From assembly GCF_963576615.1 (NCBI RefSeq), contig NC_088708.1, positions 42,797,115 to 42,861,114 on the forward strand: DNA of 64,000 nucleotides. The letters run 5' to 3'. The notes below the pieces were generated by a model, which saw only the letters and a program-made list of their open reading frames with translations, was not told the origin of the DNA and made no database searches. This DNA comes from Watersipora subatra (lineage: Eukaryota). Each line of letters opens with the position of its first letter. Position 1 is the first letter of the stretch. Of this stretch, positions 20,441 to 47,460 are shown in pieces. Position numbers and translations under genes: made by a program.

Positions 20441-20454
20441 CTGCAAAACAAGTA

Positions 20455-27343: not shown

Positions 27344-28744
27344 CTAAAACATTAACGACAAGGTTATGCGAATCCCAATAGACCATGTTCAAAACGCCCT
27401 AGCCAAATTAACTAACTAATCAATCAACTACTAAATTAAGGGTGCTTAAGGGTATAAACATGCTTATTAATTAATTAACGAGCTCACAATTAATTTATAT
27501 GAGCTGTTTTACTCAATGGCAATATGGCAAACACAATATGGCATGAAATTGTAAATGATGAACCATCTTATAAATACCGCAACAATTTTAACGAGGACAA
27601 TACGCTTTTAAACATGTTACATTATATTACAGGGTGATAACTGAATTTCAGACTAGATGCTTTCTTCACTGTTGGAACTCAAGCTAATGCCTTAATTTTA
27701 CTTTTATGCAGCATGTTATTAATCTAGAGCATTTGTGTGGGGAATATAACTCATTGTATGAAATATGGTTCGACCAATAACCATTTTTATTTCTATGCAG
27801 TGAACGACCAGCAAGACCCACCACTTTTTCACACTAAACTATCATTATAGAAACTACCACTTTGGAAAGTTGCATCTATTTTATGAAAAAAACATTCACT
27901 TTGTAAGAGCTAATAACTCCAAAACTGAATTTGGCCTGTGATGGTTGTAAAACCTGTCTATCAATCCAAGTGTTAAAATTGTTAAATCACTTCAGGTTTC
28001 TTAGGATTAAAAGTTACAAGGTAAAAAATAGTAAAAAAAACCTGATACAAATGTAAAAGTCATGAAAAGATTATATTGTCTTGAAAACAATTGAAATATT
28101 GTGATTAATGATTATTGTATCAAAACTAAAGAATGCCAACAACTGCTGTATATTGAGAGTATGCCGATTGCTGGACTTCATTTCAATAACACGCATTGCT
28201 TATAACTACAATAATTAGCCATCATTAAGGGCCACCCAAAAGTCCAGAGATAGCCTAGGTTTTCTGTGCTCTATTACTTGCTCTAAAGATAGGGAGAGAA
28301 GGTACAAATACTATGAAGACTATGATGTCAGGATGTTTTGGGCCAAAGATTACATTTAGCGGGAAAAACTTTTACGCTTTGCATTTGTGTTAAATGCTAG
28401 CATCAAAGTGTTGCTTTGCCAAAAAATTGTTTGGACGCTAACATCGACTAGTTCAGCAGTGCAAAAGTGTTGAGATCTAAAAACATTGTGGAAGGTATTG
28501 GACAACCAGAAGATGTTTGTTCCATCGAAAGCAACAATCACAACGCAGCTATCCAAGCAAATAATGCAAATATTTTTGTTTTACATACATTAATTTTTGT
28601 TTTTGCATGTATTATAAGTATGGTTCGTTTATGTCACCTGTTCATGAATATATATTTGTGGCATTTGATAAATTATCATTACATAACTTGTAAATTTGCA
28701 GACTTATAGTATACCAGATGAATGCCTAACGTTGCCTGAATAAC

Positions 28745-29310
28745 AAGTCTTTGCAAAAAAAATTTATTTTCATTTAACGTATAACAACAGTTACCATTCT
28801 AACTTTCCAACTCCATATCATGAGAAAAGTTTTTTGTGCAATTTGAATAAATTAGGAGAAAAGTAAAACAACTGTTAAGGTTTTTAAACATGGTCAAACA
28901 ACTGTAACTTTCCAACTTCATATCATGAGGGAAATGTTTGGTGCCTGTCAAATAAAGTAAAAAACAAAATGAAACAATTATAAAAGTGTTTAAATGTAAA
29001 TGTGAAATAATTAGCAAGTAATAGCAAAATTAAGTCTGTTTTGCTACGATTACAATAAAAAATGATTTGGTAATAATACAACCAATACGAACTGAGAGAA
29101 CAAAATAAAAATTCTGAATATGTTGAATTAATAATAACAGTTCGTGCATAGAAGTGTGTGTGTATAAAAAAGGTTACTGCTGCAGCATAAGCTATTCATC
29201 AATACTTTGAATACAACGATACTGGTACCTCTCGTTATGGGTACAAATGTACAAATGAGATATCGTAGTGTCTTTGTCTGGTATTTTGTCTGACCGAACA
29301 GAGACAGAAT
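28745..29310. repeat. Left copy of a ~500-bp dispersed repeat; it is inverted relative to the copy at 46630-47115 and contains an internal ~65-bp tandem duplication
   Basis: Its reverse complement matches 46640-47100 (cgttcggtcagacaaagacag...gtaccagtgtcgagaggtacc...). ORFs 29128-29355(-) and 46627-46923(+) encode the same peptide, which shows the identity. Confidence 0.6.
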
Positions 29311-29529
29311 GTAGAGGCTATTTCTACTCGATATAATAGAAGTGTAATGGCCCACTTGAAATTGAAATGGTACATTTAAAAATACAATTTAAAAAAATAG
29401 GTAATGGTAGCAAAAAACTAGTTTTTAAACAATTTCAAAAAATAACAAATGCAAAAGGTAATATTAGTTACTAATCAAAGGTGCACATTTAGTGTGTACT
29501 TTTTGGTATATGATAAGAGCGATAGAATG

Positions 29530-29615
29530 CCAAGGACTGTATTGCTCAGTGGTTAAATGCGTGGTTTGAAATTTACCATTGCAATCTCCGTGAGTTCAAA
29601 TCCAGCATGCAGGGA
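29530..29615 (+). repeat. tRNA-derived SINE-like segment, or a degenerate tRNA pseudogene
   Basis: It has an A-box-like TGCTCAGTGGTTAAATGCG and a B-box-like GAGTTCAAATCC. The stems do not pair as in a functional tRNA. Confidence 0.3.
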
Positions 29616-30111
29616 GCTATTCATTCTAAGGTTTTAACAGCTATAACTGGACAGGCAGAGATTTGAACAGACGACCAACTGAGATCTATATATATGTCTA
29701 TAGATTATTTGATAATCTGTATACGACCAAACCAAATCGTGATATACGGCCAAACCAAATCGTGATTAATGGCCAAACCAAATCGTGATATATCTATATC
29801 ACGACCAAACACTCGCCTCGCTCGTGTTTGTGATGGCATCATTGCAGTAATCTGATCTTACAATGGATCGACACTCGTAACTCCTCTTCTAATGCACTCA
29901 AAAAGCTAGTTTTGGCTGCAAACGTATTAATGAGTGCAATGAGCTTTTATGCAACATTGGTAAATAGAGACATAAAATAAAAATAAGTCTTCAAATTTAG
30001 AATGAAATAAAAATTGAAAGTTTCAACAAATTGCAAAGCAGGACACAGATTAATCATCGCAGGTTAATTGCAAGCTATAGATATCAACTGGTAGAGACAT
30101 TTCTCGGTTTA

Positions 30112-30117
<6 letters not shown>

Positions 30118-30162
<45 letters not shown>

Positions 30163-30440
30163 CTATATTTCCCAACTAGGAGGCTTCTATCAATATATAA
30201 TCCATGTTAGGAGGCTCTGAAAAATTAGGAGGCGTCCAGGGAGCCTCCTAATTCTAGCAGTGTTTATAGTGCTTACCAACCCTATAGAAGTATTTTAAAC
30301 ATGATTCCCATAATCGCCTTATATATCTATATTCATATATATGGAAAAGAGGAGACAACTCCAACAAAAATGTGTAATTTTCTATCAATAAATTATAAAC
30401 CCTAGGAGGCTCTTATATATGGAACTAGGAGGCATATCAA
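30118..30440. repeat. (TA)20 microsatellite followed by a cluster of CTAGGAGGC motifs
   Basis: (TA)n lies at 30118-30158. About eight TAGGAGGC motifs follow, up to 30440. The motif is the reverse complement of the satellite core GCCTCCTAA. Confidence 0.8.
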
Positions 30441-31954
30441 TTTTAAAACATTCTTACTTTTAACTGTTTTGGTATCGTTTCAGTTAATAGCACAATCTAT
30501 TTAAAAACATATTGCAATAAGTTTATGACTAAGCATCAGCAAATACAAAGAATTAGCAGCTATGTCGGATACAGTCAGTTTTGCTAATATTCATGATAGC
30601 TTTATTAGATTTGAGAAATAAAGTTGTATATTAACAAACTACAATACATTACAATTTATTTGCTGACCCTCTTTATAGTTTTCAAGACTGCCATTTAAGC
30701 ACTCCCTTTTTTGCAAGGTTTCTCATTGATCTGCTCTTTTTTGTGAAAATTCACAATAATTGCACATTATGGTTTCAACTGATGTTTAAGCATGGCTGTA
30801 GTAAAAGTTTAAATAAGTCTATAATCAGTACAATTCATATTTTCGATGCCGTTGCATCCAGCCACAAAATAAATATTTTTTTGAAACTTTGCATCCAAAC
30901 GCAATACCTGAGAGATGGTTTTTTAGTCGAAGAATTGATTTTTTAAATTTATTGAAGTAAAGTGGCAAAAGTATAACCACAGTATATAACAGCTAGAGAG
31001 ATGTGGCTGTTATAATGTTGCTGTGGCTGTTAGGACTATTAGTTCTTCACTCATGTAGTCTACTAGAGCTTGGTAGCAGCAGAATGACTACATGTAAGGG
31101 AGCAAGTCACATTCGGTAAGTTGTTCATGTTATTTTAGTCAATTTACAGTTTATTTACTTGAAACATACAGTTGTAGAAAAGCAGTATAAATTTTATTTA
31201 ATATTGAAATAGGACTAGCGTGAAAAAAGTATGTTTCAATTATTATAATTTTTAAGGAATGTAGCACAGAACACGTTTGATATATTTTTTACATCCGTTT
31301 ATGTCATCCAACTGCTGATATTGTTCTGCATAGAAAAGTCAAGAAAGGTCAGCATTATATTACCAAAAAGGAAAAAATCAAAACTTTTTGTAAAGTCCTA
31401 ATTTTTGACTTTATTATTGTTACACGAATGTTCAGTTTTGTAACATCAACACAGACACGCCAGCTGACAATTAATAGTTATTTTAGTGAATCAGTTAATT
31501 CTCCAACTTTAATCTATTTTCAGTTATTATTATTATAATTTTTGATGTTTTTTTATAATGATAAGTAACGTTATTAATGTGGTTCTACCAACAGTCAAAA
31601 CTGTTATTAGAATAACATGATCATAAAGTAATTGTATTATTGTTATCATGAATAGTGAGAGTTTGCGTATTTCAGTTATGATTTTGTAAGTAATAGTAGT
31701 ACATGCATAGGCATAAGCAAGTAAGTGGGTATATGCAGCCTTTGAATTTTGAAACTTTTAGTATTTAGTTTGAATCTTGTGTAGTAATTGTGTAGTAATT
31801 AAGAGCTTAGCTGTTTTATAGAGCTTCAGTAGTAGGAGGCAGACATTCAAGTTTGCCAAAAAAAACCTAACCAGTGAACTAAAATGTGTATTTTGCATTC
31901 ATTTTGGTTTGTATATCTGTTTATGCTACTTGAATTATCTTTTCATTTTTGTAG

Positions 31955-32041
31955 AAACTTGGTAAGCATTGTTGCCAAGATGGCATATTTATCAGATGGC
32001 AGAGAGTATTAGACAAAGTTGGATGTTCTTTTCTAGAAAAG
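31955..32041 (+). CDS. Diverged copy of the Tudor-like exon-like segment (KLGKHCCQDGIFIRWQRVLDKVGCSFLEK)
   Basis: The same acceptor and donor context (tttttgtag ... GTATGT) is present. It is 29 codons with no stop, but the Tudor signature is degraded. Confidence 0.2.
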
Positions 32042-35000
32042 GTATGTTGCTAATTACACGTTGGTTTGCATAAAAAATATGTCAAAATAATCAAGGTTTC
32101 ATCTACCGAAATTTATAATATTTTTTAACATATACATAATTATAGATTACAAACTATAAAACATTATATCAGTAAGGTTGTATTTTGAAATGTAGTAAAG
32201 TTTGACGTTTTGGCAAAGTCACTATGATAAGCAAAACTTTAAATTCACCAACACAAAATATACTGTACAAAGTTTTACTGTAACTAGCAAATGTATACCT
32301 GACGTAAGAATGTAACAGCATGCCCAAAAGTGGTTTTTCTTTGTATAGTTGCAAATAATCAATGACGCTTTAGTTATAGATAACTGCTGGATGAGAAGCA
32401 TTGATGGCCCACACCAAAGACTGATTTGCAGACATCAAATTAAAGGTATGCGATATTGCAATAAGTTGCTGTAAAATAGCACATTATACATGCGAGCCAA
32501 AAATTAGTGTAATAATTTGATATAGCCATAGCTTCAGTAAGAAAAGTTGTTAATTTTTACAGGCATTGTATTATTTAAACGCTTACATAAACCATTATGC
32601 CACTTTTGTGTTCTATTCATCTATTATTGGCAGATTACATAATATAAATAGCGCAAACCAATCAAAGGAATGTAGCATAGCAAAGAGATTTAGTATTGCT
32701 CTTCTTAGTCTTTATGAGTCATGGTTGCAATTGCTGAGCAATTGCATAATTATATAAAATGAATAGTTTTCCATGGTTACTCATTACCACTTTTAGTTAC
32801 TCAGTCAACACTGAGAGTAATTATCAGATTTGAGATATCATGTTTAGAGGCAGGAGATTGACAAATATTTTGTTGGTTTTTACTCTTACCCTACCGTATG
32901 CGAATTTATGCTAAATCTATCAGCAACTGCCGTATGCACATTTTTGCGAATTTTCCAACAATTGCGTGGTCACCTAATTTTATTATCCATTAAAAACATA
33001 ACGGATGATTTTAAAACTTTGATGGTATTGTCAGTGTGGTTCGAATATTTCTCTAATAGATTAGTCTAAGATAACCAAGCAGTTTCAAATTTTTTTTTGA
33101 GAATTTCCAAAATAAAAATGGACATTTTTTGTGTAAGTTTTGTTAAGTATCGCGCAAGTCAGAAAACATATAATTACTTACATGTATGTTGATGACACTA
33201 TAGTCAATTCAAATTCAGATTTTTGTGATTACACAGATAATTAAATTAGCAACAGTGACTCTGATGATAGTGAAAATAATAGTTTTTTAAGTGTAAGGGA
33301 CATTGTAGAGCATCCGTTTTAGCTTTGTAGCGATTGTAGCTTCACATAGCGTTAGCAATGCACAAAGTGAAGGTACATTGATTTTTGCATAGCACTATAT
33401 GTTAACATTTTAGCAAAATAAAATATATTACAAAAAGTTTATAGATAAACTTTGAAGTTGAAACAAAATAGTATACATGCTTCATGTACATATCATGAAG
33501 CTAAATTGGCAATTTTCGGTGAAATGGCTGGCGGTAGGCCGGTAGCTTAGTTTGTACATGGGTGGCAGTAAAAGGGTAAAGCTATAAAAGAATTAGAGAT
33601 ACAAGTGTATGTATTTCCTTTTAAATGATTTAGTGAACTTTGATGATTCAAGACAATGAGTTTGGCGAATGATATATATATATAAGATGCTGCTGAAGTT
33701 GCGCAATTCAACTCATGGCTTTTAATTATTACCTCAAAATGTTGAAAACACGCGATAGGAAGGGCCAGAACACTACTAAAACTCATAGTTACTCAAACCT
33801 GAAATACAGTAGGTTTTATACAAATTGCTGTACAATAACAAAACTGCAAAACTATTGGTTAAAATATAAATAGCAATATATATTATTATTTTTGGCCTTC
33901 GGTATCGGGCAGCATGTATGCAGTTTGTTTGCTGATGTTAACAAAAGTTTTACTAATAAGCTACATAATTTGCTCAATTATTTGTGTCAACTTTAAAATT
34001 TAAAACAAATGTAGTGTTAGCACTTTTAGGATATACTACAAACAACGCAGAGGAACTTTTTGTGGCATATGACTTGAATTTAAAAGTTCTCTGAAAATGC
34101 AACTTGTATTTGCCCATTTTAATACTTTAAAATGTCAAAGGGAGCTCATAATGAAAGCAACGTTAATATAATTTCAAGATGCTCAAATCGGTACGGATGT
34201 TATGTTGACAAACATTAAAAGGTCACTCTGTACTATGGCTAGTAAGTTTTTACATGTATTTAGATTTTGCATTGATGTTTTCAATTAGGTAGTGTAGGAA
34301 ATCTATTTACATTAGCTAAATTACCAGCATGTGCAATACCCAGCTTTGTTTCCTATCCATCCCAAACATTTTGCCAATGCTTATAATAATTCATTGCTCT
34401 TTTCAAATCTCATTTCTGAACCAAAGGTAGTTTTAGCAGTATAAGAACATATACTTCTCTTCCTATGGGTCTACTCACTTTTCTGTAGCAGCAAAGGCCA
34501 TTGTTTTTAAAAGGTCTGTAAGAATTGTATTACTTATTTTGACTTCCATTGGTGCTCGTAGCAAATATAATTTCAGTACAATTTGCATCAATAAAGTTAT
34601 TATTACTTGTTTGTAAAGTATTTGGAGCAAAACAATATTTTATGTGCACAGCAAACATTTTTGCTGCAAGCTTACCAAAACAAAATAAAACGTTTATTTT
34701 TATGTTACATTTTAATTAAACATCATGTTCTATTCAGTTATTGCTGTCAGTACTATGCAGTTATTGCTGTCAATGTTCTTTGTGCATTCTTGGCACACTT
34801 TTATGTTAAACTTCCAATGCATTAAACACTTTAGAAATAAAGTGTCCAAACAAGGATGCATAACATGAGATTTGTCACTGGCTTGTTTTGACCTATATCT
34901 AGCACTCTTTAGCCAAAGGTGTCTAGCTTTACTAAAATATTTGGTAGTGAAATTGTACATAAATTCATTGCCTGCATACACATCAATCATGATGCCTATG

Positions 35001-36135
35001 CTCTTATTATGTGTTCTACTATTGCCTGCTTAGCTAATTCACTTTCTACTTCTCAATAGCCTCAGCCTCCGAATGAAAGCTATTGTTGTTATTCCTATTC
35101 TTTGTAACTTTATAATGAAGGAGGTTGTGGTTGGGCAGCTCATTTGCTTTTCACTCTATTAGAAATATTGCAGCACAAGTATAACTGCAGTAATAAAATC
35201 TTCACAGAATTGCATAATGTGGTCTTATTCTCCAAGGTCTTCTCACTAGCAGAAATGACCTATGTACTTATGCAATTGTGGTTTGTGCTTAAAGTGACTC
35301 ATTCTCCTAATGTGGCATGGCTTTGCTATCTTCTTGCATGCTAGTCAATTGATTAAATAGATTGTAAGAAGCAAGCCAACCTCTCATTCCTACACAACCT
35401 AAAGACTTATCACATAAGTTCAACCTTCTAGCGAGATTGTAGCCGCTAAACATTTTGCTTTTTTCACGCGTCTAGCCATTCAGGGTTTTGCAGCAGCAGA
35501 AGAACAGACTAATCATGTCACAATTGGTATATTTGTTTGTCACAATTGTTTTATATTACTTTTGCCAATTTTGTCATTGAATTAATTGTACCATATTATG
35601 GTGAAAAGGCATCATGAAAAAGTATTTTACTTCGCCTCAATACCAATGCGAAAGGTTAGACCGGTAGTGGCCATTTTTGACCTTTAGGGCGAGCCACTTT
35701 AAATACTATATCTAAGCAACTTACTCATGTCATCAAATTGCGACGGCAAACAACAATGCATAGGTTTTCGCAGCTAATTTGGATTTGGATTTTACTGCCT
35801 TAATTGCAAGATCGTAATATTGTCAAGTTAAAAAGGTCAAGAAACCCCAACTTTATAATGCTAAAAGAATGAAATTATTACTAATTTTCATAAAATGATA
35901 ACTTTGTAATTATACACAAGGGTAGCTTTGTGAGATTAACCGACACACATTAAAATAGTTATGGTAACATATAGCTCAGTAGCCAGCAATTGATGAATAT
36001 CTGTGACTCTGTCGATGCTCCTAACTTTTGTAACTTTTTAAAAAGCATTAAAATAATTATGGATGCTTTTTATTCTGATTAGTAGTGTTAGCTGATTGAT
36101 AGCACCAAACAGGCAGAATTATTAGTAGCCTATAC

Positions 36136-37280
36136 TATACTGCCCTGAGCAAGCAAAACGCTGTATCTTGATATTTGTAAATTGTTCAGCACAAGCACAA
36201 ACGCGTTTTGGTCAAGCCTGGCATCAGTATTAGCAGTATTTTAGTTGTTTTTTTTTATTTATTATGGTGAGATATCCAACAATTTTTACTGAATTTTTTT
36301 TTCGTGAAACTTTAAAATCAAAGGAGTTATTTCACTTAGGGCATTTTGTTTGCTTAAATTGACAATTTACTAAGCTGGCACTAGGCAATCAAAACGCCCT
36401 ATCACTGCAGATAGGGCCTTTTGATTGCTTAATTGGACTGGTTTCTCATTGTTAGTTTGCCACAAGACCATTTGCCATGACTGGATTATCAAAGGATTAC
36501 AAGTTTAAATTCTGATATTAACCCGCAATTAGTCAACAAAATGATATATGTTGCAATTCCTATTACTCATCCAGTCAACACATGGATTAAAACCCTGTAA
36601 TAGCCATATTTAGCTCAAAAGTTAAGAGATGATCAAAGATCTAGGTATCCTTCAAACCAGATGTCATGAAATGAAAGGAATAAGTAAAATAGTAGTTTAA
36701 AAAAGATCAAACGCTTTTATTAAAAATAATTTAAAGCAAACAACTGAGTGCAATAATTTCAGTATTTTAAAAAAGCAAAACCTTCCAATGGACATGTAAT
36801 TAAAACAAATTTTTCATCAAATCTCTGAGTCGGATCTTTAAATCGAGACTTTTGTCACTTAGATATCGTCTTGTCATAATAAATATATTATGATAAAAAA
36901 TATAGCAATAAGATTGAGCACTTAGAAGTGCACTAGCTTGTATGAGCTGCCTTGAAACAACCAAATATATATGCTTCAGTTTCGCTTCCCTTTGTTTATA
37001 TACTCTTTGATTACATAATGCTTTTCATAATGTCAAACTTTGTGTATGTTCAGGCCAATCAAAACGCTGTATCTGCAAATAGAGCGCTTTGATTGCCACT
37101 TTATGTGTGGTAAATGTGGATAGGGCGTTTTGCACATTGTGAAATGTGCTATTTCTGGTGGTCTCAGATATATGAAATTTTGAGACATGTTAGATCTCAA
37201 CCTAAATTACATTGAAGCACAAAAAAGTAAATCTTGAAAAACTTGTCAGATAGGGCGTTTTGCTTGCTTAGGGCAGTATA
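36136..37280. mobile_element. MITE-like element (~1.15 kb) with ~26-bp terminal inverted repeats and internal perfect palindromes
   Basis: The left end TATACTGCCCTGAGCAAGCAAAACGC matches the reverse complement of the right end TATACTGCCCTAAGCAAGCAAAACGC at 25 of 26. There are internal hairpins at caatcaaaacgccctatcactgcagatagggccttttgattg (36379-36420) and caatcaaaacgctgtatctgcaaatagagcgctttgattg (~37055-37095). Confidence 0.5.
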
Positions 37281-37611
37281 AAGTTGTGATAATGTATTAT
37301 TTTCATTGTAATTAACAAGTTGATGCATTTTAGTCGTAATTTGATACGGATTTAAACTAGAGGCTGAGTCATAAGTAAGTGACTGGAGTAAATGAAATCC
37401 TTTAAATTGTTGAAGCTTTAAAATCTATGTTTCAATTTTGTAGAAGAATATCGCAAGAGATAAAATATTACTGCTTCATAGAATTTTAGTAATGGGAGGT
37501 AGGGACACGGGTTTGCTGAAAAACCTAAAAACAACAGGCATCTTTTGCATCACTTTTTAATCTGCATAACATCTGTTTGGGCTATTAAAATTGTTTTGCT
37601 TATTTTGGTAG

Positions 37612-37692
37612 AAACCTGGTCACCGCATCCAAGCACTATATCCACCAGATGGAAAATGGTACGAAGCACAGCTGGACGCTTTCTTGAAGGGG
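37612..37692 (+). CDS. Exon-like segment encoding a Tudor-domain-core-like peptide (KPGHRIQALYPPDGKWYEAQLDAFLKG)
   Basis: It lies between a ttttggtag acceptor and a GTATGT donor, 27 codons with no stop. The peptide fits the Tudor signature [C/I]-A-x-Y-x-x-D-G-x-W-Y-[R/E]-A. A diverged copy lies at 31955-32041. Confidence 0.3.
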
Positions 37693-40342
37693 GTATGTTG
37701 CTGATTAACGGTTAGTTTCCACAAGAGCGTGCCACATTAATAAAAGTTTTATTTCAAAAAATTTATAAGAAATAATATTACTATAAAATCTATGTTTGAA
37801 TGCCATGGCACTGCATTTTTTAACCCTTCCAATTATAGTGGCAAAAATTGTCGATTGTGCTTCATAATATATGTTCAATCTTTATTAGCTTCAACTCTAT
37901 CTAAAACCTTTTTGTTATAGATTTTATTTTTCCAACACGTTAAAAAATAGTACTATTCAAAAAACTTAATGCATTCCTACTTCGTGCATTGCTAATGCTA
38001 TGTGAAGCTACGATCCCTTCAAATCTCAAAAAACAATGCTCTACCATGTTCCTTACTCTTACAAAAACTATTACTTTGACCACCATTGGAGTCACTATTG
38101 GAGCTGCTACTTTAATTATATGTGTAATCACTAAAATCTTAATCCGTCAGTCATCAACAATCATCAATAATGTTATCAACATAAGTAATTATCTGTTTTC
38201 AATTCTGGATGTACTTGCGAAAGCTATAATAGCACTAAATATTTCAAAAATCAGAAAGAACAAATGTTTCTTTTTATGTTGAAAAGTCCTAAACAAAAAT
38301 TTAAAATTGCTTCGTGAGTTTAGGGTAATTTTACAGGGAAACTTTTGGACAACACTGTCAATACCCTAAAAAGTCTTAAAGACTGTTAGTTATGTTGTCA
38401 ACGAATAATAAAATTAAGTTACTACGCAATTGCCAGGAAATTCGCAACATGCACATATGCCGGTCGTCCATTGATTTCGCCTAAATGCGCATGCAGCGGT
38501 GAAAGGGTTAATAAAATATTATGTAATCTCTAATTGAATCCCCATTCATTTAAACGCCCCTCTACTAGACCTGTACTATAATAGATGACGGTTAAAGATA
38601 GAACGCCGCCGTTCAAGTGAACGTTACTTCTTTTGAAAAAAACACATAAAAAACTATATAACACACAAACTAAGCTGTGATTCAGTGATAACATATACAC
38701 TGGGCGCTGAGCTTGCAAAATGCCATCGTTAACTGCTTATTCTAATGCTGTAGCATGTGCAAGAAATTTTAGCCTCAAATAGTAGTACAGATTTCATCAT
38801 ATTTGCTAAACCGTTTTTTCATATATGCCGAACTATCAAGGCCGCTTAAACAATAAAATTATTATCAGCCTGATAGAGTTATTAATTATTTCCACGGTGC
38901 TGCTTTCAAAGCTTTAACGAAAACACTGTAAAGCTTAGAAGTTAGAAAACTCGCTTCAATATGCATTGACAAAAGTATTAATTGCTATTGTTGTAACTGA
39001 GTCATTGTTAGTAAAAATTTGTCAACATTTTTCTATCCATCCTGTCCAAAATCGGATCCAAAGATCAAAGAATGTTGAAGTCGCAGTCAGCTGGATGTGG
39101 TTGTCAATTAAAGGGTGACACTCTAGTTTTCAACACTTCTAGAATAGCACTCGAATGAACATGGCCTTCAAATTAAGATTCTACCTTATGTCAATTTAGC
39201 TGTATTTCAGAATGTTATAATATTGGAGTTTTGGGTCAAGGTTAAAATAGCAAGCATAACTTTGCAAATATTGACGCAACAAGATTTTAGTTTTAAATAA
39301 GGCTCTGCTTTCATATATTTGCAAATCACTAATGCATGAATTTAAAAAAAGAACCCAAGGGTATATTTCTCTTTGTGTAGTAGCATCTAATCGAAAATGC
39401 ATTGATTTTAAATAAGTGCAGAGTGACATACATGGATTATCAACACCGAAGAGTGATTTTCAGACATCAGATTAAATGTGGGTGATGCTATGATAAGTGG
39501 CTTTAAACTAACACAATGTACTAGGGAACCAAGCGTGATTATTTTGCTGTAGCTCAAATGCAGTATAAAAAATAAAGGTGTCTAACTTTTCAAGTATTTC
39601 AGTCAAATTCGTTGCCTACATAAATGCTGACACTAGTCTTTGTGTTCTGCTGCTGTCAGGTTACAAAACATAGCTCTCCTAGTCAGAGGCATTTAGGTAT
39701 CTAGAGCAATCTAGGCATTAGTGGTTTCAATGAACACCTGAACAATGGTGTTTAACCACATTGCTTGACCCCATAGGTCAAGTATTAGCCTAATTAATGA
39801 CTCAATAAATAGCTACCCAGTCAGGTCACACTAAGCTTAGCAGCAATCGTTCTGAACACTGGCCATTGAGACTGCTCAATGAATGTTAATCCTGATCATT
39901 TCTCTAATAATTTGAAGCAAATAGAAATCCAAACTGCTCTATCGCATGCATGCAAGTGGCACACCATTTAGTTTCATAATTAGCTACTAAAGTAGTATAT
40001 AGAAGTGGTCATCAAAATACCTTCTACAGTATATGTGTGTTTTGAATAACAATACATTGGTTAAGTATTATATTACTAAATGAGAAATGACACTAACGAG
40101 CATTAATGTCCTTATTGTTCACTTGTATCTTAGAAACCATCAATTCTGTTTTGACTTGCAGCACGTAAACCAGCTTATTTAACTTTTGAATGGAGCTGAG
40201 CAATGATATGTGATTCATCAAAGCCATAGCTTATCAGATTTTTATAAATGATAATTCACATTATTTACTATTTCAGTCAGCAGAAAACGGTAAAGTGCAG
40301 AGGAAATAGCAGAATTTGACAAGTACTGGACTGAAAAATCAG

Positions 40343-40467
40343 GCAAACTGCCAACAAGATCAGTGTTGGATGCTAAACACTCAACGCTGCCTAACAGAAG
40401 TGTTACAGTGATTCGGGCTCGAGCCAACAACTTGCTAAAGAAGGCTGCGAGAAAAAATGCCAGCTGA
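40343..40467 (+). CDS. Putative terminal coding exon of an unannotated plus-strand gene (…GKLPTRSVLDAKHSTLPNRSVTVIRARANNLLKKAARKNAS*)
   Basis: An AG acceptor lies at 40341-40342 and the ORF runs to TGA at 40465-40467. An AATAAA lies at 40516-40521, ~50 nt downstream. A paralogous unit at 41691-41871 keeps the same reading frame. Confidence 0.35.
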
Positions 40468-41690
40468 ATTTTTTATGTTGTTGAACCTTCTTATTATCAT
40501 TGCGTTGTATTTGTCAATAAATGTGCTCTTTTTGAAGACTAAAAGAGACCAACTCCGCAGTAATGCACTTGTATAGTTATTTTGTATCAAGCAGTCTTAG
40601 CTATTATTTTATGTACAGAAAATGTGCATAAAACAATGACTATGATAGATAATACAATACCGACAATAGATATTATCTGTTGTACTGCACTGTACACTAT
40701 GATGTATTATTCAAGAAACAAGCTCTAAGATAAATTATAATAATTCTTTTAAAGAAAAACTAAATATAAGGAAATATGCCGCAGCAGCCAGTCTACTGAC
40801 AACTTACTGTCAAACCGACAAGCCCAAAAAATTACTTAGAACGCTGTGCTTGACTAAAAACAATCAGAAATTCACTACACAATGAGAAATATATCTTTTT
40901 GGGTCATTTTCCAAATTTAAGTGAATGTGTCTGAGTAGAATGTTCTATCAATTTCTTGACAGTTCAGGGCATTATTATTACTGGTAAAATGTGAATAATA
41001 GCACTCAGTATTACTATTGATCAATAAAACCACCCAAAGTCAAGAGATCTAAAGTTAGAAAAAATTTGGTACTGTGCTGGGTCCAGCCCGACTGATCATT
41101 GCTAACAATAAATTGCAGTAAGAAAGAAGTTTTGAAAAGCGAAAATGCCCTCAAGATAGAATGTTATTGTATTTTTATTGGCTCTCTATGTGACATTAAG
41201 TTTTTCCCTGGGTTCTACATAGGCACAATGGGCTTGTTTGGAATCTACCCAATTTATGGTGCTGTGGTATTGCGCAGGTTTTGCAACCTGACACTCCATT
41301 CCCGAGTGGGGAAATGTTTTTACTTAACGTTCTAAGAGTGGCTTAAGATGAATAGAAAGACATTGCTGTTATTGTATGTTAGATTGAGTAACTAAGTATG
41401 TTGTGCAAGTAATTCATATTATTACTGTAGATAATATGCACAGCAAGCAAAAATGTGTGTGTTTCATTTTAGCAATCACAGTAACTGAGTTGCGTCCATG
41501 CATTGTTACCAACTAATTTTTTTTAAGTTTTTGTATGCAGTGCAGCAGCGATATGTGACTGAATAAGAAACTATAACATAGACCATATTTACAAATATTG
41601 AGTTACATTATTCGTTTATATTAGTGAGCAGAAAGTTATGCAGCCTAAAAGAAAATTGAGAGTTCAAAAAGCCATGATTGGAAGATTGAG

Positions 41691-41803
41691 GCAAACTACC
41701 AAAAATGCCAGAGCTGTATACTGTTAAAAGAAATTGGTGTTTGAAAATTATAATGATGACTTATGCCCGAGCCCACAACTTACTCAAGAAGCTGCAAAAT
41801 TAA
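41691..41803 (+). CDS. Paralogous putative terminal exon (GKLPKMPELYTVKRNWCLKIIMMTYARAHNLLKKLQN*)
   Basis: An AG acceptor lies at 41689-41690 and the stop TAA at 41801-41803. An AATAAA lies at 41866-41871. The exon and its upstream ~70 nt are similar to the 40343 unit. Confidence 0.35.
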
Positions 41804-42069
41804 ACTGGCAGCAGGGTCTTCTTGTTGTTGAGGCTTTTGTAATATCGCATTAAACTTGACGTCTGAATAAATTTACTCCGTTTGGTGACTAAGCAACGAC
41901 CATTCTATGGTACTTGACTAGTTGAATTTTTTAGTATCAAGCATGGTGGCTGTTGTTGTTTTAAATACAAATTTATTGATTCCTACGTTAAAGTTTAACA
42001 TACTATACAATATGTAGGTTCTAACAACAATTATTGTTGTTTTATACAGATTGTTGTTTTATTGTACAG

Positions 42070-45000
42070 ATTATAGCAGACTCTTAGTTGATCTATAAGT
42101 GATAGCAACATCCCAAATTATATGTAAGCCATGGCACCTCTGCATTGATATGTAAGTTATAGCAACCTCCTAAATGATATATAAATAACAGCAGCTTCCT
42201 AATTACTATATAATTCATTGCAGCCTCCTAACTGATATATAAATAGTAGCTACCAACTATATAAAATTCAAATTATAGTAAACTCTTTTGTGATCTATAA
42301 GTCATAGCAACATCCTAAATTCTATGTAACCCATAGCAACCACTGCAATGATATGTAAGTTATAGCAACCTCCTAAATGATATATAAATAGCAGCAGCCA
42401 CCTAGTTAATATATAATTCATAGCAGTCTCCTAACTGATATATAAATAGTACTGTAGCTACCAACTATATGAAATTCAAATTATAGCAAACTCTCAGGCG
42501 ATCTATAAGTGATAGCAGCATCCTAAATTATATGTAACCCATAGCAGCCTCTGCAATGATATGGAAGTTATAGAAACCTCTTAAATGATATATAAATAGC
42601 AGCAGCCTCCTAATTAATATATAATTCATTGCAGCCTCCTAACTGATATATAAATAGTAGCTACCAACTATATGAAATTCAAATTATAGTAAACTCTTAT
42701 GTGATCTATAAGTCATAGCAGCATCCTAAATTCTATGTAACTCATAGCAACCTCTGCAATGATATGTAAGTTATCGCAACCTCCTAAATGATGTAAAAAT
42801 AGCAGCAGCCTCCTAATTTATATATAATTCATTGCAGCCTACTAAATGATATATAGATAATATCTATCAACTATGGAAAATTCAAATTATAGCAAGGTCT
42901 TAGGTGATCTATAAGTGATAGCAACATCCTAAATTATATGTAACCCATAGCAGCCTCTGCAATGATATGTAAGTTATAGCAACCTCCTAATTGATATATG
43001 AATAGCAGCAGCCTCCTAATTAATATATAATTCATAGCAGCCTCTTAACTGATATATAAATAGTAGCTACCAACTATATGAAATTCAAATTGTAGTAAAC
43101 TCTTATGTGATCTATAAGTCATAGCAACATCCCAAATTATGTGTAACACATGGCACCTCTGCAATGATATGTGAGTTATAGCAACCTCTTAACTGATATA
43201 TAAATAGTACTGTAGCTACCAACTATATGAAATTCAAATTATAGCAGACTCTTAGTTGATCTATAAGTGATAGCAACATCCCAAATTATGTGTAACACAT
43301 GGCACCTCTGCAATGATATGTGAGTTATAGCAACCTCTTAAATGATATATAAATAGCACCAGCTTTCTAAGTAATATATAATTCATTGCAGCCTCCTAAC
43401 TGATATATAAATAGTAGCTACCAACTATATGAAATTCAAATTGTAGTAAACTCTTATGTGATCTATAAGTCATAGCAACATCCTAAATTCTATGTAACTC
43501 ATAGCAACCTCTGCAATGATATGTAAGATATAGCAACCTCCTAAATGATATATAAATATCAGCAGCCTCCTAATTAATATATAATCCATAGCAGCCTCCT
43601 AACTGATATATAAATAATAGCTATCAACTATGGAAAATCCAAATTATAGCAAGGTCTTAGGTGATCTATAAGTGACAGCATCATCCTAAATCATATGTAA
43701 CTCATACCAGCCTCTGCAATGATATGTAAGTTATAGCAACCTCCTAAATGATATATAAATAGCAGCAGCCTCCTAATTAATATATAATTCATAGCAGCCT
43801 ACTAACTGATATATAAATAACTGCTATCAACTATGGAAAATTCAAATTATAGCAAGGTCTTAGGTGATCTAAAAGTCATAGCAACATCCTAAATTCTATG
43901 TAACCCATAGCGACCTCTGCAATAATATGTAAGTTATAGCAACCTCCTAAATGATATATAAATAGCAGCAGCCTCCTAATTAATATATAATTCATAGCAG
44001 CCTCCTAACTGATATATAAATAATAGCTATAAACTATGAAAATTCAAATTATAGCAAGGTCTTAGGTGATCTATAAGTGATAGCAACATCCTAAATTCTA
44101 TGTAACCCATAGCAACCTCTGCAATGATATGTAAGTTCTAGCAACCTCCTAAACAATATATAAATATCAGCAGCCTCCTAATTAATATATAATTCATAGC
44201 AGCCTCCTAACTGATATATAAATAATAGCTATAAACTATGAAAATTCAAATTATAGCAAGGTCTTAGGTGATCTATAAGTGATAGCATCATCCTAAATTA
44301 TATGTAACTTATAGCAGCCTCTGCAATGATATGTAAGTTATAGCAACCTCCTAAATGATATATAAATATCAGCAGCCTCCTAATTAATATGTAATTCATA
44401 GCAGTCTCCTAACTGATATAGAAATAATAGCTATCAACGATGGAAAATTCAAAATATAGCAAGGTCTTAGGTGATGTATAAGTGATAGCATCATCCTAAA
44501 TTATATGAAACTCATAGCAGCCTTTGCAATGATATGTAAGTTATAGCAACCTCCTAAATGATATATAAATATCAGCAGCCTCCTAATTAATATATAATCC
44601 ATTGCACCCTCCTAACTGATATATAAATAATTGCTATCAACTATGGAAAATTCAAATTATAGCAAGGTCTTAGGTGATCTATAAGTGATAGCATCATCCT
44701 AAATTATATGTAACTTATAGCAGCCTCTGCAATGATATGTAAGTTATAGCAACCTCCTAAATGATATATAAATATCAGCAGCCTCCTAATTAATATGTAA
44801 TTCATAGCAGTCTCCTAACTGATATAGAAATAATAGCTATCAACGATGGAAAATTCAAAATATAGCAAGGTCTTAGGTGATCTATAAGTGATAGCATCAT
44901 CCTAAATTATATGAAACTCATAGCAGCCTTTGCAATGATATGTAAGTTATAGCAACCTCCTAAATGATATATAAATATCAGCAGCCTCCTAATTAATATA

Positions 45001-45830
45001 TAATCCATTGCACCCTCCTAACTGATATATAAATAATTGCTATCAACTATGGAAAATTCAAATTATAGCAAGGTCTTAGGTGATCTATAAGTGATAGCAT
45101 CATCCTAAATTATATGTAACTTATAGCAGCCTCTGCAATGATATGTAAGTTATAGCAACCTCCTAAATGATATATAAATATCAGCAGCCTCCTAATTAAT
45201 ATGTAATTCATAGCAGTCTCCTAACTGATATAGAAATAATAGCTATCAACGATGGAAAATTCAAAATATAGCAAGGTCTTAGGTGATCTATAAGTGATAG
45301 CATCATCCTAAATTATATGAAACTCATAGCAGCCTCTGCAATGATATGTAAGTTATAGCAACCTCCTAAATGATATATAAATATCAGCAGCCTCCTAATT
45401 AATATATAATCCATTGCACCCTCCTAACTGATATATAAATAATAGCTATCAACTATGGAAAATTCAAATTATAGCAAGGTCTTAGGTGATCTATAAGTGA
45501 TAGCATCATCCTAAATTATATGTAACTCATCGCAGCCTCTGCAATGATATGTAAGTTATAGCAACCTCCTAAATGATATGTAAGTTATAGCAACCTCCTA
45601 AATGATATATAAATATCAGCTGCCTCCTAATTAATATATAATCCATAGCAGCCTCCTAACTGATATATAGATAATTGCTACCAACTATGTGAAATTCAAA
45701 TTATATCAATTTCTCAAATGATCTATAAGTTATAGCAACATACTTTATTATATGTAAATCAGAGCAGCTTCTAAAAGAAACAAGTTATAGCAAACTCCTA
45801 AATGATATAAGTTACGGCATCTTACTAAAG
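42070..45830. repeat. Satellite array with a ~203-bp monomer (202-208 bp), ~18 copies, degenerate at the 3' edge; it contains three ~40-bp subrepeats built around GCAGCCTCCTAA
   Basis: The anchor gatctataagt recurs at 42090, 42292, 42500, 42703, 42905 and onward. The variants agtGatagc and agtCatagc alternate, which suggests a ~405-bp higher-order unit. The array lies inside the BTBD terminal intron. Confidence 0.9.
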
Positions 45831-46129
45831 GGTATGTAAGCTATGCCATGCTATGTAATGTTTCCATTGTAACTATTACATAAGTTACAATGGTAACATT
45901 CTAATTTATGTGTAATTTGTAGCAATCTGCTAACTGGTAATCATTATTTTTGCTTACTCATTGAGGTATGAATTATTTTACCTTCAAATTGATATGTAAT
46001 TTACAACAACCATCTAGACATTCTCCAAGTTTTGACAGTTTTTCTAGTATGCATATATACAAAGTATGATAAGGCGATGAATATATATTGTATGATACCA
46101 TATTCTCTTAAAATTTCCATAAAAATATA

Positions 46130-46291
46130 TAATAATTAGGAGGTGAATAAATATATATATATATCTACAATGTAGATAAATTAGACCATATAGGAGGCTT
46201 ACCCATATATATTTGCGTTAACTCCTAATCCCTTATATTCCGCAACCTCCTAACTGGTATATATTTATTCAACTCCTAACTCGGAAATATG

Positions 46292-46325
<34 letters not shown>
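46130..46325. repeat. Cluster of CCTCCTAA and TAGGAGG motifs followed by a (TA)15 microsatellite, a mirror image of 30118-30440
   Basis: The motifs lie at 46130-46290 and (TA)n at 46296-46325. Confidence 0.8.
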
Positions 46326-46326
<1 letters not shown>

Positions 46327-46629
46327 TTCTCAAAGTTCGTCTTCTGTTCTTCGGTATGTCCAGCTATAGCTATTAAAATTTTGGAATTGAAATTTCGCAA
46401 TCTGCTGCACTTGAACTCACGAAGATTGCAACCGCAGTTTTGCAATAAAATTCTCTAACCATGAGACCGCGAAAGCTCTTACAATTCATCGCTCCTACAC
46501 CCAAAATAACGCACTATTTGAAACGCCATGCATTCTACTAACTCTATGAAACATGATGCTTTTTTGCTTTTTTTTATCGTGAACTTCTAATTCCGGTTTT
46601 TCGTGAAGTTCAATTACTGAATCGCGGTG

Positions 46630-47115
46630 AAGGTCAATACTTTTTATGCGAACAATTCGTTCGGTCAGACAAAGACAGTCCGATATCCCATTTTTACATT
46701 TGTACCAGTGTCGAGAGGTACCAGTGTCGTCGTAGTCAAAGCTTTGATGGATAGCTTATGCTGGAACAGTAACTTTTTATACACACACACTTCTATGCAA
46801 GAATTGTTATTATTAATTCAACATATTCAGGATTTTTATTTTGTTTTCTCAGTTCGTATTAATTGTACATATCATTACCAAATCAGCTTTTATTGTAATC
46901 GTAGCAAAACAGACTTAATTTAGCAATTACTTGCTAATTATTTCACATTTACATCGAAACTCTTTTATAGTTGTTTTATTTTGTTTCTTAACTTATTTGC
47001 CCTGCACAAAACATTTCCCTCATGATATGAAGATTAAAAGTTACAGTTGTTTGACAAAGTTAGAAAACCTTCACAGTTGTTACAAATAAATTTTCTGTGC
47101 AGACTTTTTTATTAC
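46630..47115. repeat. Right copy of the ~500-bp dispersed repeat, inverted relative to 28745-29310
   Basis: See the left copy. The two copies bracket ~17.3 kb that includes the 203-bp satellite. Confidence 0.6.
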
Positions 47116-47329
47116 CAAGGCAATGCTGGGTAGTACAGCAATGCTGGGTAGTACAGCTAGTCAATCCAAATTTATTAAGACATTTCTGACAAGCTGGAGG
47201 TAAGTTAACAGATTTAATGCATCCAAAAGGTTTAATATCGCTCCACCGAAAAAGGAGGACAAAATATAGGCAACATTCACGTCGCCCGTAAAAGGGTTAG
47301 AATTATCTTCCCAAAATTCTGAAAAGCCA

Positions 47330-47460
47330 TTTGAAAAATACAACGCCATTCTCTATTCGAACGCCAGTCTCTATTTGAACGTCACCTCCAACTGACCGCC
47401 ACTATGGAAAGGTTGAAAAATAGAGCGCCGTGGCATTTAATTAGAGGTTTTACCGTAAGT
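47330..47460. repeat. Second copy of the dispersed repeat seen at 6650-6800
   Basis: It matches 6650-6800 in reverse complement. Confidence 0.4.

What the first reader, a model, noticed from the sequence alone, without database searches (positions are those of the whole stretch)
28745..47115. Mirror-symmetric ~18.4-kb block: ~500-bp inverted copies at both ends, then inward-facing (TA)n plus TAGGAGG/CCTCCTAA clusters, enclosing the 203-bp satellite
The order on the left is repeat copy (28745-29310), then (TA)20 and a TAGGAGGC cluster (30118-30440). On the right it is the mirror image: a CCTCCTAA/TAGGAGG cluster and (TA)15 (46130-46325), then the inverted repeat copy (46630-47115). The motif clusters share the core of the satellite monomer (GCAGCCTCCTAA). 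This could be a very large composite or foldback-type element, a palindromic rearrangement, or the degenerate flanks of a once larger satellite that was split by a ~12-kb insertion.
Basis: seen in the sequence. Interest (0 to 1): 0.65.

Follow-up and report, generated by a model that had tools for sequence, protein, structure and literature searches.

The report
Nested repeats around transposon-born satellite
The mirror-image block in this bryozoan (Watersipora subatra) chromosome is real, but it is best read as repeats inserted into repeats: a 16-kb foldback-like element, whose end repeats grew into the 203-bp satellite, landed in the TA tract of one of two oppositely oriented copies of a ~1-kb repeat, which is an ordinary kind of genome history.

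Summary
The inverted copies are about 0.85–1 kb (28714–29722 and 46326–47177, 83% identical). The only two long (TA)n runs in the window sit at mirrored positions. TAGGAGG clusters flank a 3.7-kb satellite whose 203-bp unit is 7 x 29 bp. The window is Watersipora subatra, on the longest scaffold.

The 18.4-kb block does not behave as one element. An uninterrupted paralog of its flanks (6689–7602) shows the flank is split into three pieces, with one outer copy (RS+) between pieces a and b and everything else between b and c. A perfect 10-bp direct repeat, AGACATTTCT, brackets only 30105–47177. RS+ reads straight through the point where the other copy (RS−) is interrupted, so a 16.1-kb unit (30160–46293) lies inside the TA tract of RS−.

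That unit has 67-nt terminal inverted repeats made of satellite-type subunits and no coding capacity. The array merges into its right arm and ends abruptly on its left.

Best reading: a nested-insertion pile containing a foldback-like non-autonomous element that seeded a satellite, as Tetris did in Drosophila virilis. Genome-wide copy number could not be tested. Interest is low to moderate.

The parts
6689..7602 (-). Uninterrupted paralog ('copy A') of repeat X. Pieces a, b and c are contiguous here, so it serves as a paralogous empty site for the block.
   Evidence: blastn pairs 6744-6925~47352-47171, 6938-7225~30110-29836 and 7236-7602~28713-28389. Global alignment to the reconstructed flank. 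79.8% identity, no conserved ORF. No terminal inverted repeats.
28332..28713 (+). X-a: left piece of the host repeat X.
28714..29722 (+). RS+: left copy of a ~1-kb interspersed repeat. The most conserved core is 28867-29280. It has an internal 105-bp duplication (28793-28854 / 28898-28959) and its own short TA tract at 29686-29705. The 3' limit is approximate.
   Evidence: No tRNA or Rfam match. Only a non-significant 6-nt flanking repeat, GTATAC.
29720..29835 (+). 23-bp minisatellite (3.2 copies, 29720-29792) plus spacer between RS+ and X-b. Origin unresolved: either an expanded X sequence or the RS+ tail.
29836..30104 (+). X-b: middle piece of host repeat X, collinear with a and c. Its last 10 nt (30095-30104, AGACATTTCT) are the left copy of the putative target-site duplication.
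30105..30159 (-). Distal end of RS−, cut off from the rest of RS− by the 16-kb unit: 9 nt (rc GATAAACCG, compare GATAATCTG in RS+) plus the left half of its TA tract, (TA)23-25.
   Evidence: The 9-nt homology is weak on its own. The assignment rests on the duplication and on the X-b/X-c adjacency in copy A.
30160..30432 (+). Left arm of the 16.1-kb unit. The terminal inverted repeat is 30165-30231. The arm holds six TAGGAGG-bearing satellite-type subunits, five of them inverted relative to the array.
30433..42069 (.). Non-coding middle of the unit, a mosaic of old repeats. 31318-32614 has a split copy at 35817-39648. Inverted arms lie at 32854-33516 / 37844-38530 (69%). 40175-40617 matches 41519-41969, and 38804-39173 matches 7673-7961.
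   Evidence: No ORF of 90 aa or more. No Pfam hit on any stop-free stretch of 50 aa or more. Repeats.
42070..45809 (+). Satellite array. The 203-bp monomer is seven diverged 29-bp subunits. There are about 18 monomers, most homogeneous at 44193-45410 (97%), with a 149-bp variant at 43034-43410 and an abrupt left edge.
45810..46293 (+). Decaying satellite units (45810-45990) running into the right arm. Motifs lie at 46137-46278 and the terminal inverted repeat at 46222-46290.
46294..46325 (.). (TA)16: the right half of the TA tract of RS−.
46326..47177 (-). RS−: body of the right copy of the ~1-kb repeat, inverted. It includes an 18-bp tandem duplication at 47120-47157.
47178..47457 (+). X-c: right piece of host repeat X. 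Its first 10 nt (47178-47187, AGACATTTCT) are the right copy of the putative target-site duplication.

Best explanation
The block is a pile of insertions, not one mirror-symmetric element.

Step 1 (shown): a ~0.9-kb non-coding repeat X existed here as one piece, as its paralog at 6689-7602 still does.

Step 2 (repeat shown, mechanism inferred): two copies of a ~1-kb interspersed repeat, RS, entered X at two sites 270 bp apart, tail to tail. RS− entered between X-b and X-c and made the 10-bp duplication AGACATTTCT. RS+ entered between X-a and X-b and left no readable duplication.

Step 3 (shown): 16.1 kb of DNA (30160-46293) then came to lie inside the TA tract near the 3' end of RS−. This split the tract into (TA)23-25 and (TA)16 and stranded the last ~9 nt of RS− beside X-b. 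That is why a (TA)n run appears on the left at all.

Step 4 (anatomy shown, mobility inferred): the 16.1-kb unit is a non-autonomous, foldback-like DNA transposon. Its ends are 67-nt inverted repeats built of 23-31-nt units, each carrying CCTCCTA(A) next to a TATATA stretch, in the same +,+,+,− order from each tip. It has no coding capacity. It would be moved in trans by a transposase that binds these reiterated units and prefers TA-rich targets. Part of its length may come from later insertions.

Step 5 (inferred): the subterminal units of the right arm were amplified by unequal exchange or replication slippage into a 29-bp array. Seven diverged units then became the 203-bp higher-order repeat that was homogenised.

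The outer 'mirror' is therefore a coincidence of two same-family insertions plus a split TA tract. The inner mirror is a genuine pair of transposon ends.
For: Self-comparison shows X pieces a, b and c contiguous at 6689-7602 but separated in the block by 1.1 kb and 17.07 kb. The X copies are 79.8% identical and non-coding.

AGACATTTCT occurs only twice in the window, at 30095 and 47178, which are exactly the two edges of the 17-kb extra DNA. Only 0.9% of random window pairs of that size share a 10-mer.

With 30160-46293 removed, RS− aligns collinearly with RS+ at 82.9% over 871 columns, running into a TA tract native to both.

The inner TIR is 30165-30231 against 46290-46222, 54 of 74 columns. 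It scores 42, against 22 +/- 2.7 for shuffles (maximum 32) and 25 for the direct-orientation control.

Motif orientation is five of six inverted on the left and all array copies in the other orientation.

Both arms match the satellite's subunit 7-to-1 junction beyond the core: the left arm only when inverted (40), the right arm and the decay zone in array orientation (37 and 33). Controls and the DNA left of the array score at background.

The unit has no ORF of 90 aa or more and no Pfam domain.

There is precedent: Tetris, a non-autonomous foldback element whose TIR tandem repeats expanded into kb-size satellite arrays (PMC4079207), and MITE-to-satellite routes reviewed in PMC12628747.
Against: Only this one locus could be examined. 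No second copy of RS, of the inner TIR or of the satellite exists in the 64-kb window, so multi-copy status and mobility are inferred rather than shown.

The target-site duplication of the 16-kb unit cannot be read because both flanks are (TA)n. Its TIR is short (67 nt, 73%) and is itself made of satellite-like units, so the direction of derivation (TIR to satellite, or satellite to ends) is not fixed.

RS+ has no significant flanking duplication, only a 6-mer, and the class of RS is unknown.

Two same-family insertions 270 bp apart in opposite orientation is a coincidence that needs a fairly abundant family.

16 kb is very large for a non-coding TIR element, so some of it may have arrived later.
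Confidence: 0.62

Rival explanations
1. The whole 28.7-47.2 kb block is one Tetris-like modular foldback transposon. The RS copies would be the outer 'flanking domains' of its long TIRs, the (TA)n and unit clusters or satellite the tandem-repeat domain, and 30.4-42 kb the middle domain. The present copy would be rearranged on its left side.
For: The layout resembles Tetris closely: an outer TIR domain of up to 866 bp, then ~220-bp tandem repeats, a non-coding middle, and 8-10 bp TSDs. A 10-bp direct repeat exists here. The order RS, TA, units is mirrored on both sides.
Against: X-b, which is collinear with X-a and X-c in the paralog, lies between RS+ and the left (TA)n. The 10-bp repeat lies inside RS+ rather than outside it, and no repeat of 7 nt or more brackets the whole block. 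RS+ has its own TA tract and continues past it, so the left (TA)23-25 is a second tract that does not belong to RS+. Rescuing the model needs an ad hoc swap of RS+ and X-b with both orientations kept.
Confidence: 0.1
2. RS+ is not an independent insertion. It is a local inverted duplication of RS−, made by fold-back or template-switch repair, and placed 270 bp away. The 16-kb unit is a separate later insertion, as in the main model.
For: The copies are close together, lie in opposite orientation and are 83% identical. RS+ has no significant target-site duplication. No third RS copy exists in the 64 kb.
Against: RS+ and RS− begin within ~25-45 nt of the same point. Much of that offset is an 18-bp tandem duplication in RS−. 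Both end just after the same TA tract, as copies of a discrete element would. RS− has a perfect 10-bp duplication, so the family can insert. An arbitrary segmental copy would be expected to carry some flank with it, and none is seen.
Confidence: 0.15
3. Satellite first. A 29-bp array arose in or next to the TA tract. An inversion then flipped its left end and about 12 kb of unrelated DNA inserted into it. On this reading the inverted 'TIRs' are array remnants and nothing here was ever a transposon.
For: The TIRs are built of satellite-type units. The interior is a mosaic of old repeats that could have arrived piecemeal. No transposase remnant was found.
Against: The two tips match each other from within 3-5 nt of the TA runs and share the same +,+,+,− unit order. 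The array's left edge is abrupt, with no decayed units, whereas a split array should leave array-orientation remnants on the left. The model needs an inversion whose breakpoint coincides with the TA tract.
Confidence: 0.1
4. A once larger satellite was simply split by a ~12-kb insertion, with no inversion.
For: The same core motif occurs on both sides of the 12 kb.
Against: Five of the six left-hand motifs, and the best gapped alignment of the left arm, are in the opposite orientation to the array: 40 inverted against 26 in array orientation, where 26 is background.
Confidence: 0.03

Closest known systems
Tetris, a foldback transposon of Drosophila virilis (Dias et al. 2014, PMC4079207)
   Same: It is non-autonomous with no ORFs. 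Its inverted ends contain tandem repeats, and its middle domain is variable and non-coding. The TIR repeats (~220 bp) amplified into kb-size satellite-like arrays, and repeat number differs between arms and alleles. The inner 16.1-kb unit here works the same way on the evidence.
   Different: Tetris TIRs are long (up to 1,735 bp) with an 866-bp outer domain, whereas here the matching tips are 67 nt. The array is on one arm only, with about 130 subunits against 6. Tetris has readable 8-10 bp TSDs, but here the flanks are (TA)n and cannot be read. There is no sequence similarity, and this is a different phylum. Multi-copy status is shown for Tetris and not here.
Drosophila melanogaster FB (foldback) elements
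   Same: The ends are built of short reiterated units, the arms are often unequal in length, and pairs of ends can carry large non-coding or foreign DNA (established knowledge of the family, not tested here).
   Different: FB arms are hundreds of bp to several kb of 10/20/31-bp repeats on both sides, with 9-bp TSDs (from memory). Neither feature could be shown here.
Tandem-repeat-bearing MITEs: Xenopus miDNA4 (Tc1/mariner) and Xstir, and Donax trunculus tandem-repeat MITEs (reviewed in PMC12628747)
   Same: A short-TIR non-autonomous element carries an internal satellite whose copy number expands and can outgrow the element. Insertion into a TA-rich target fits the TA target of Tc1/mariner elements (established knowledge).
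   Different: Those elements are miniature, whereas this unit is 16.1 kb. In miDNA4 the repeat is thought to be captured, whereas here it is homologous to the TIR units themselves.
Helitron/Helentron-borne tandem repeats of bivalves and Drosophila (reviewed in PMC12628747; PMC8268682)
   Same: Short satellite arrays sit inside non-autonomous mobile elements scattered in euchromatin.
   Different: Helitrons lack TIRs and have 5'-TC...CTRR-3' ends with a 3' hairpin. The unit here has inverted ends reading GAACTATATTTCC... and ...GGAAATATGGG.
Ordinary nested transposon insertions ('TE graveyards')
   Same: Repeat-in-repeat-in-repeat structure that can be reconstructed from paralogous empty sites.
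   Different: Nothing essential differs. The accidental symmetry is what drew attention.

Membership tests
Foldback transposons (FB / Tetris type): inner unit 30160-46293 | Inverted termini composed of reiterated short units or tandem repeats | tested here: met
   The 67-nt TIR scores 42 against 22 +/- 2.7 for shuffles. Both arms carry CCTCCTA-type units in the same +,+,+,− order, and these are homologous to the satellite subunits.
Foldback transposons (FB / Tetris type): inner unit 30160-46293 | Long TIRs (hundreds of bp to kb) on both sides that make up much of the element | tested here: not met
   Arm-to-arm alignment stops after 67-74 columns. Unit-bearing arms are about 270 nt on the left against about 4.2 kb on the right. 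The 11.6-kb middle dominates.
Foldback transposons (FB / Tetris type): inner unit 30160-46293 | Target-site duplication of 8-10 bp (Tetris) or 9 bp (FB) | tested here: inconclusive
   Both flanks are (TA)n, so a duplication of any length made of TA cannot be distinguished.
Foldback transposons (FB / Tetris type): inner unit 30160-46293 | Non-autonomous copies lack ORFs | tested here: met
   No ORF of 90 aa or more. No Pfam hit on any stop-free stretch of 50 aa or more.
Foldback transposons (FB / Tetris type): inner unit 30160-46293 | Several genomic copies sharing the termini, with insertion polymorphism | not testable with these tools
The metagenome, prokaryote-genome and viral scans found nothing. 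There is no second copy in the window.
   No shared direct k-mer of 7 nt or more between 28690-28740 and 47120-47200. The 10-mer pairs 30095 with 47178 instead.
   X-b (29836-30104) lies between the arms, yet it is the native middle of the host repeat, collinear with X-a and X-c in the paralog.
Tc1/mariner-type MITE carrying a satellite (miDNA4-like) | TA target-site duplication and short TIRs | tested here: inconclusive
   The unit lies inside a TA tract, which is consistent, and its TIRs are short. The TA duplication cannot be resolved, and the tips do not read like the canonical Tc1/mariner termini that I recall.
Tc1/mariner-type MITE carrying a satellite (miDNA4-like) | Miniature size (under about 1 kb without the array) | tested here: not met
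   The unit is 16,134 bp, and 12.4 kb without the array.
Helitron/Helentron with internal tandem repeats | 5'-TC ... CTRR-3' ends, a 3' hairpin and no TIRs | tested here: not met
   The ends read GAACTATATTTCC... and ...GGAAATATGGG and are inverted repeats.
tRNA-derived SINE (for RS) | tRNA-related head with pol III A and B boxes at the 5' end | tested here: not met
   By eye, 29520-29615 has box-like strings. ARAGORN finds no tRNA, and Rfam finds nothing at gathering score or at E<=1. The stretch also lies ~800 nt from the RS 5' end.
Satellite DNA with higher-order repeat structure | Head-to-tail monomers, with a higher-order unit more homogeneous than its subunits | tested here: met
   The 29-bp period shows 63% matches, against 87-92% for the 203-bp period. 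Monomers are 84-98% identical to the consensus.

The most novel reading that the evidence does not exclude
RS, the TA tract, the CCTCCTA-unit arms and the 203-bp satellite together are the modules of a recurrent Tetris-like foldback family in Watersipora, and this copy is merely rearranged. That would be the first foldback family, and the first transposon-born satellite, described in the phylum Bryozoa. Such elements might contribute to the unusually scrambled bryozoan karyotype reported in PMC11789643 by providing dispersed inverted repeats.
Probability: 0.1. Interest if true: 0.45.

Novelty: new member of a known kind. Interest (0 to 1): 0.25.

Why it matters
The finding matters mainly as a worked example. 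A striking 18-kb mirror symmetry dissolves into ordinary nested insertions once paralogous empty sites inside the same window are used.

The part that survives is a foldback-like element whose end repeats are continuous with a 29-bp / 203-bp higher-order satellite. It adds a lophotrochozoan (bryozoan) case to the known route from transposon ends to satellite DNA. My literature searches found no description of transposons or satellites for this phylum.

If the family proves abundant, it would be useful for repeat annotation of the Darwin Tree of Life bryozoan assemblies. Its dispersed inverted repeats would also be candidate substrates for rearrangement.

Tried and rejected
(1) tRNA-derived SINE for RS. 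Box A/B-like strings are visible at 29520-29615, but ARAGORN and Rfam at gathering score and at E<=1 find nothing. Rejected. The only Rfam 'hits' were mir-297 on the TA run, a low-complexity artefact.

(2) Coding remnants in the 16-kb unit. There is no ORF of 90 aa or more. Pfam on all 49 stop-free stretches of 50 aa or more finds nothing.

(3) Sampling more of the W. subatra genome to count copies. The BTB protein P0001 is not in the contig index. The hAT-like ORF returned no Watersipora paralogs. Exact-pattern scans for the satellite and the RS core found nothing in metagenome contigs, prokaryote genomes or viral contigs.

(4) An ungapped PWM of the 29-mer found no unit outside the array at 10 bits or more. 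This was misleading, because the flank units differ by 1-6 nt indels. Gapped alignment recovers them.

(5) X as a transposon whose internally deleted derivative is copy A, which would rescue a 19-kb composite. X has no terminal inverted repeats in either copy and no ORF. Rejected.

(6) The 32854-33516 / 37844-38530 inverted pair as the TIRs of a nested 5.7-kb element. The right arm sits inside a split copy of another old repeat, while the left arm sits beside the intact copy. They look like two independent old insertions, and no clean termini or duplication are visible. Left open.

(7) A target-site duplication for RS+. Only the 6-mers GTATAC and TTGCAG are shared, which is not significant.

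(8) Inversion by recombination between RS+ and RS−. Undoing it would invert X-b relative to X-a and X-c, which is less parsimonious. Rejected by reasoning.

Full report
**Source of the window.** A 424-aa BTB/BACK exon at 55077-56351 (−) is 100% identical to 'BTB/POZ domain-containing protein 1-like [Watersipora subatra]', which lies on a 79,350,317-bp record. That is the longest scaffold of assembly tzWatSuba1.1, GCA_963576615.1 (783.7 Mb, 11 chromosomes). An alternate haplotype is deposited as GCA_963576605.1 (PMC12902671). The window is 29-39% G+C, rich in minisatellites and has few long ORFs, so this is eukaryotic non-coding DNA.

**Checking the observation.**
- The inverted copies are found as three collinear arms, 28867-29280 against 46666-47081, at 85-94%. 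blastn gives one 418-nt match at 87%, E=4e-145.
- A more sensitive search extends the pair to 28725/28867-29705 against 47130-46307.
- TRF reports only two period-2 arrays in the 64 kb, at 30110-30159 and 46294-46325.
- TAGGAGG occurs 51 times against 2.9 expected. Forty-one sites lie in the array, all reading CCTCCTA on the + strand. Nine of the ten others lie at 30177-31839 and 46137-46252.
- The satellite (42070-45809) has a 203-bp period at 87-92% matches over a 29-bp period at 63%. The 203-mer is seven diverged 29-mers, and monomers are 84-98% identical to their consensus.

**What the self-comparison adds.** A stretch at 6689-7602 matches, in inverted orientation, three separated pieces around the block:
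- 28332-28713, which I call X-a;
- 29836-30110, X-b;
- 47171-47457, X-c.

In the paralog the three pieces are contiguous, at 79.8% identity, with no conserved reading frame. The block is therefore a copy of a ~0.9-kb repeat X that contains two stretches of extra DNA. The first is 1.1 kb between a and b (28714-29835). It holds the left inverted copy (RS+) and a 23-bp minisatellite. The second is 17.07 kb between b and c. It holds the left (TA)n, the motif clusters, the satellite, the right (TA)n and the right inverted copy (RS−). So the two ~1-kb copies do not bracket one insertion. A native piece of the host repeat lies between RS+ and everything else.

**The 10-bp repeat.** AGACATTTCT occurs exactly twice in the window, at 30095-30104 and 47178-47187. 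These are the two edges of the 17-kb extra DNA. In a control, 173 of 20,000 random window pairs of the same sizes (0.9%) shared a 10-mer. I read this as a target-site duplication. In contrast, no direct repeat of 7 nt or more brackets RS+...RS− as a whole, RS+ has only non-significant 6-mers at its own edges, and X has no terminal inverted repeats in either copy.

**A second paralogous empty site.** When 30160-46293 is removed and the two sides are joined, RS− aligns collinearly with RS+ at 82.9% over 871 columns. The alignment runs into a TA tract that both copies possess: about (TA)4-5 plus TA-rich sequence at 29686-29705 in RS+, and the two long runs in RS−. After the left run come 9 nt (rc GATAAACCG, compare GATAATCTG after the tract in RS+) and then the duplication. 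The 9-nt match is weak on its own.

The simplest reading is that RS is a discrete ~1-kb repeat ending shortly after a TA tract. RS− inserted between X-b and X-c, and 16,134 bp later came to lie inside its TA tract. The left (TA)23-25 therefore belongs to RS− and not to RS+. This removes the apparent pairing of 'repeat copy plus (TA)n' on the left. I could not determine the class of RS. The tRNA-like look of 29520-29615 is not supported by ARAGORN or Rfam.

**The inner unit.**
- Its tips, starting 3-5 nt from the TA runs, form an inverted repeat: 30165-30231 against 46290-46222, 54 of 74 columns. The score is 42, against 22 +/- 2.7 for shuffles (maximum 32) and 25 for the direct-orientation control.
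- Each arm carries CCTCCTA(A)-type units. Read inward from each tip, the orientations run +,+,+,−.
- Gapped alignment shows the units are homologous to the satellite beyond the 7-nt core. Both arms best match the same two-subunit stretch, the subunit 7-to-1 junction.
- The left arm matches only when inverted (40, against 26 in array orientation). The right arm scores 37, and the decaying zone at 45810-45990 scores 33 in array orientation.
- Shuffles give 20-22 +/- 2-3. Five control regions, and the 300 nt to the left of the array, score at background.
- The array is thus continuous with the right arm, decays into it, and ends abruptly at 42070.
- The middle (30433-42069) has no ORF of 90 aa or more and no Pfam match on any stop-free stretch of 50 aa or more.
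- The middle is a mosaic of old repeats at 61-71% identity. It includes an inverted pair at 32854-33516 / 37844-38530 and a stretch related to DNA next to the X paralog.

**Mechanism.**
- Shown: the order of nesting (X, then RS−, then the 16.1-kb unit), the inverted termini made of satellite-type units, the lack of coding capacity, and the polarity of the array.
- Inferred: the unit is, or began as, a non-autonomous foldback-like DNA transposon moved in trans by a transposase that recognises the reiterated units and targets TA-rich DNA. The right arm's subterminal units were then amplified by unequal exchange or slippage, and a seven-unit block became the homogenised 203-bp higher-order repeat. 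Some of the 11.6-kb middle may have arrived by later insertions.
- Also inferred: RS+ and RS− are independent insertions. Both copies have nearly the same 5' start once an 18-bp tandem duplication in RS− is discounted, and both end just after the TA tract, as copies of a discrete element would. A local inverted duplication cannot be excluded.

**Rivals.** Tetris of Drosophila virilis has an outer TIR domain of up to 866 bp, then ~220-bp tandem repeats, a non-coding middle and 8-10 bp duplications. It fails on the position of the duplication, on X-b lying inside the left arm, and on RS+ having its own TA tract. The 'split satellite' reading fails on orientation. A 'satellite first, then inversion and insertion' reading is not excluded. 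It is less economical, because the two tips match from the TA runs inward with the same unit order, and the array leaves no remnants in array orientation on the left.

**Comparison with known systems.** The inner unit works like Tetris and like tandem-repeat-bearing MITEs such as Xenopus miDNA4 and Xstir or the Donax trunculus elements (PMC4079207; PMC12628747). I cannot file it as a member of the foldback class in the strict sense. Long TIRs on both sides are not present, the duplication cannot be read, and multi-copy status is untestable here. It is not a Helitron or Helentron, because its ends are inverted repeats and lack TC...CTRR. It is not miniature. I found no description of transposons or satellites in Bryozoa.

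**Limits.** All inference comes from one 64-kb window. The assembly could not be queried. The hAT-like ORF did not lead to other Watersipora loci. Scans of metagenome, prokaryote-genome and viral collections found nothing.

**Verdict.** The single-element interpretation of the 18.4-kb block is not supported. The inner 16.1 kb is a plausible foldback-like element that seeded a higher-order satellite. This is a new member of a known kind, of low to moderate interest.

Noticed in passing
24429-25575 (-): Two overlapping reading frames (228 and 199 aa) of a frameshifted hAT-like transposase relic. There is a weak zf-BED match (E=0.002, below Pfam's cutoff). The relic is 42-56% identical to DUF4371 / hAT-dimerisation proteins of coelacanth, spiders, flies and fish, and 80% identical to an unnamed ENA protein on a 2.8-kb contig.
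   Followed up: partly
20246-20629 (-): An ankyrin-repeat exon (Ank_2, E=3e-9). Its upstream part, in the same ORF, runs into a 21/49/56-bp minisatellite (20447-20629), so the repeat may be translated or may mark an exon edge.
   Followed up: no
8255-8698; 16473-16905; 18791-19394; 10996-11305; 1504-1718: An unusual density of nearly perfect minisatellites in the left 20 kb: 21 bp x21 (98%), 39 bp x11 (99%), 97 bp x6 (96%), 45 bp x7 (90%) and 17 bp x12.5. I did not examine whether each sits inside a mobile element as the 203-bp satellite does.
   Followed up: no
51743-51860 / 52489-52606: A 118-nt inverted repeat, 94% complementary, with arms 628 nt apart. It is a compact MITE- or foldback-like structure, much younger-looking than anything in the block.
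   Followed up: no
49259-49958 and 50535-51245: A ~700-nt direct repeat at about 80% identity with a start-to-start spacing of ~1277 nt. It could be a tandem duplication or the two ends of an element.
   Followed up: no
7673-7961 and 38804-39173; 7863-7990 and 47342-47442: The DNA immediately beside the X paralog is related (64-71%) to a stretch inside the 16-kb unit, in direct orientation, and also to the distal end of X-c, which carries 17-18-bp tandem repeats. This suggests further old repeat families shared between the two loci. It is not explained by the nested-insertion model, and it does not contradict it.
   Followed up: partly
31318-32614 vs 35817-36128 + 37293-37768 + 39183-39648; 40175-40617 vs 41519-41969: Ancient direct duplications (61-64%) inside the 16-kb unit. 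The second copy of the 1.3-kb unit is itself split by two insertions, one of which contains the right arm of the 32854/38530 inverted pair.
   Followed up: partly
43034-43410: A 149-bp variant period inside the satellite, a 203-mer lacking about two 29-bp subunits. It marks the junction between an older, more diverged left part of the array (87% matches) and the homogeneous right part (92-98%).
   Followed up: no
58000-62000: A strong positive GC skew (+0.18 to +0.23) over 4 kb just beyond the BTB gene. It is the largest skew excursion in the window.
   Followed up: no
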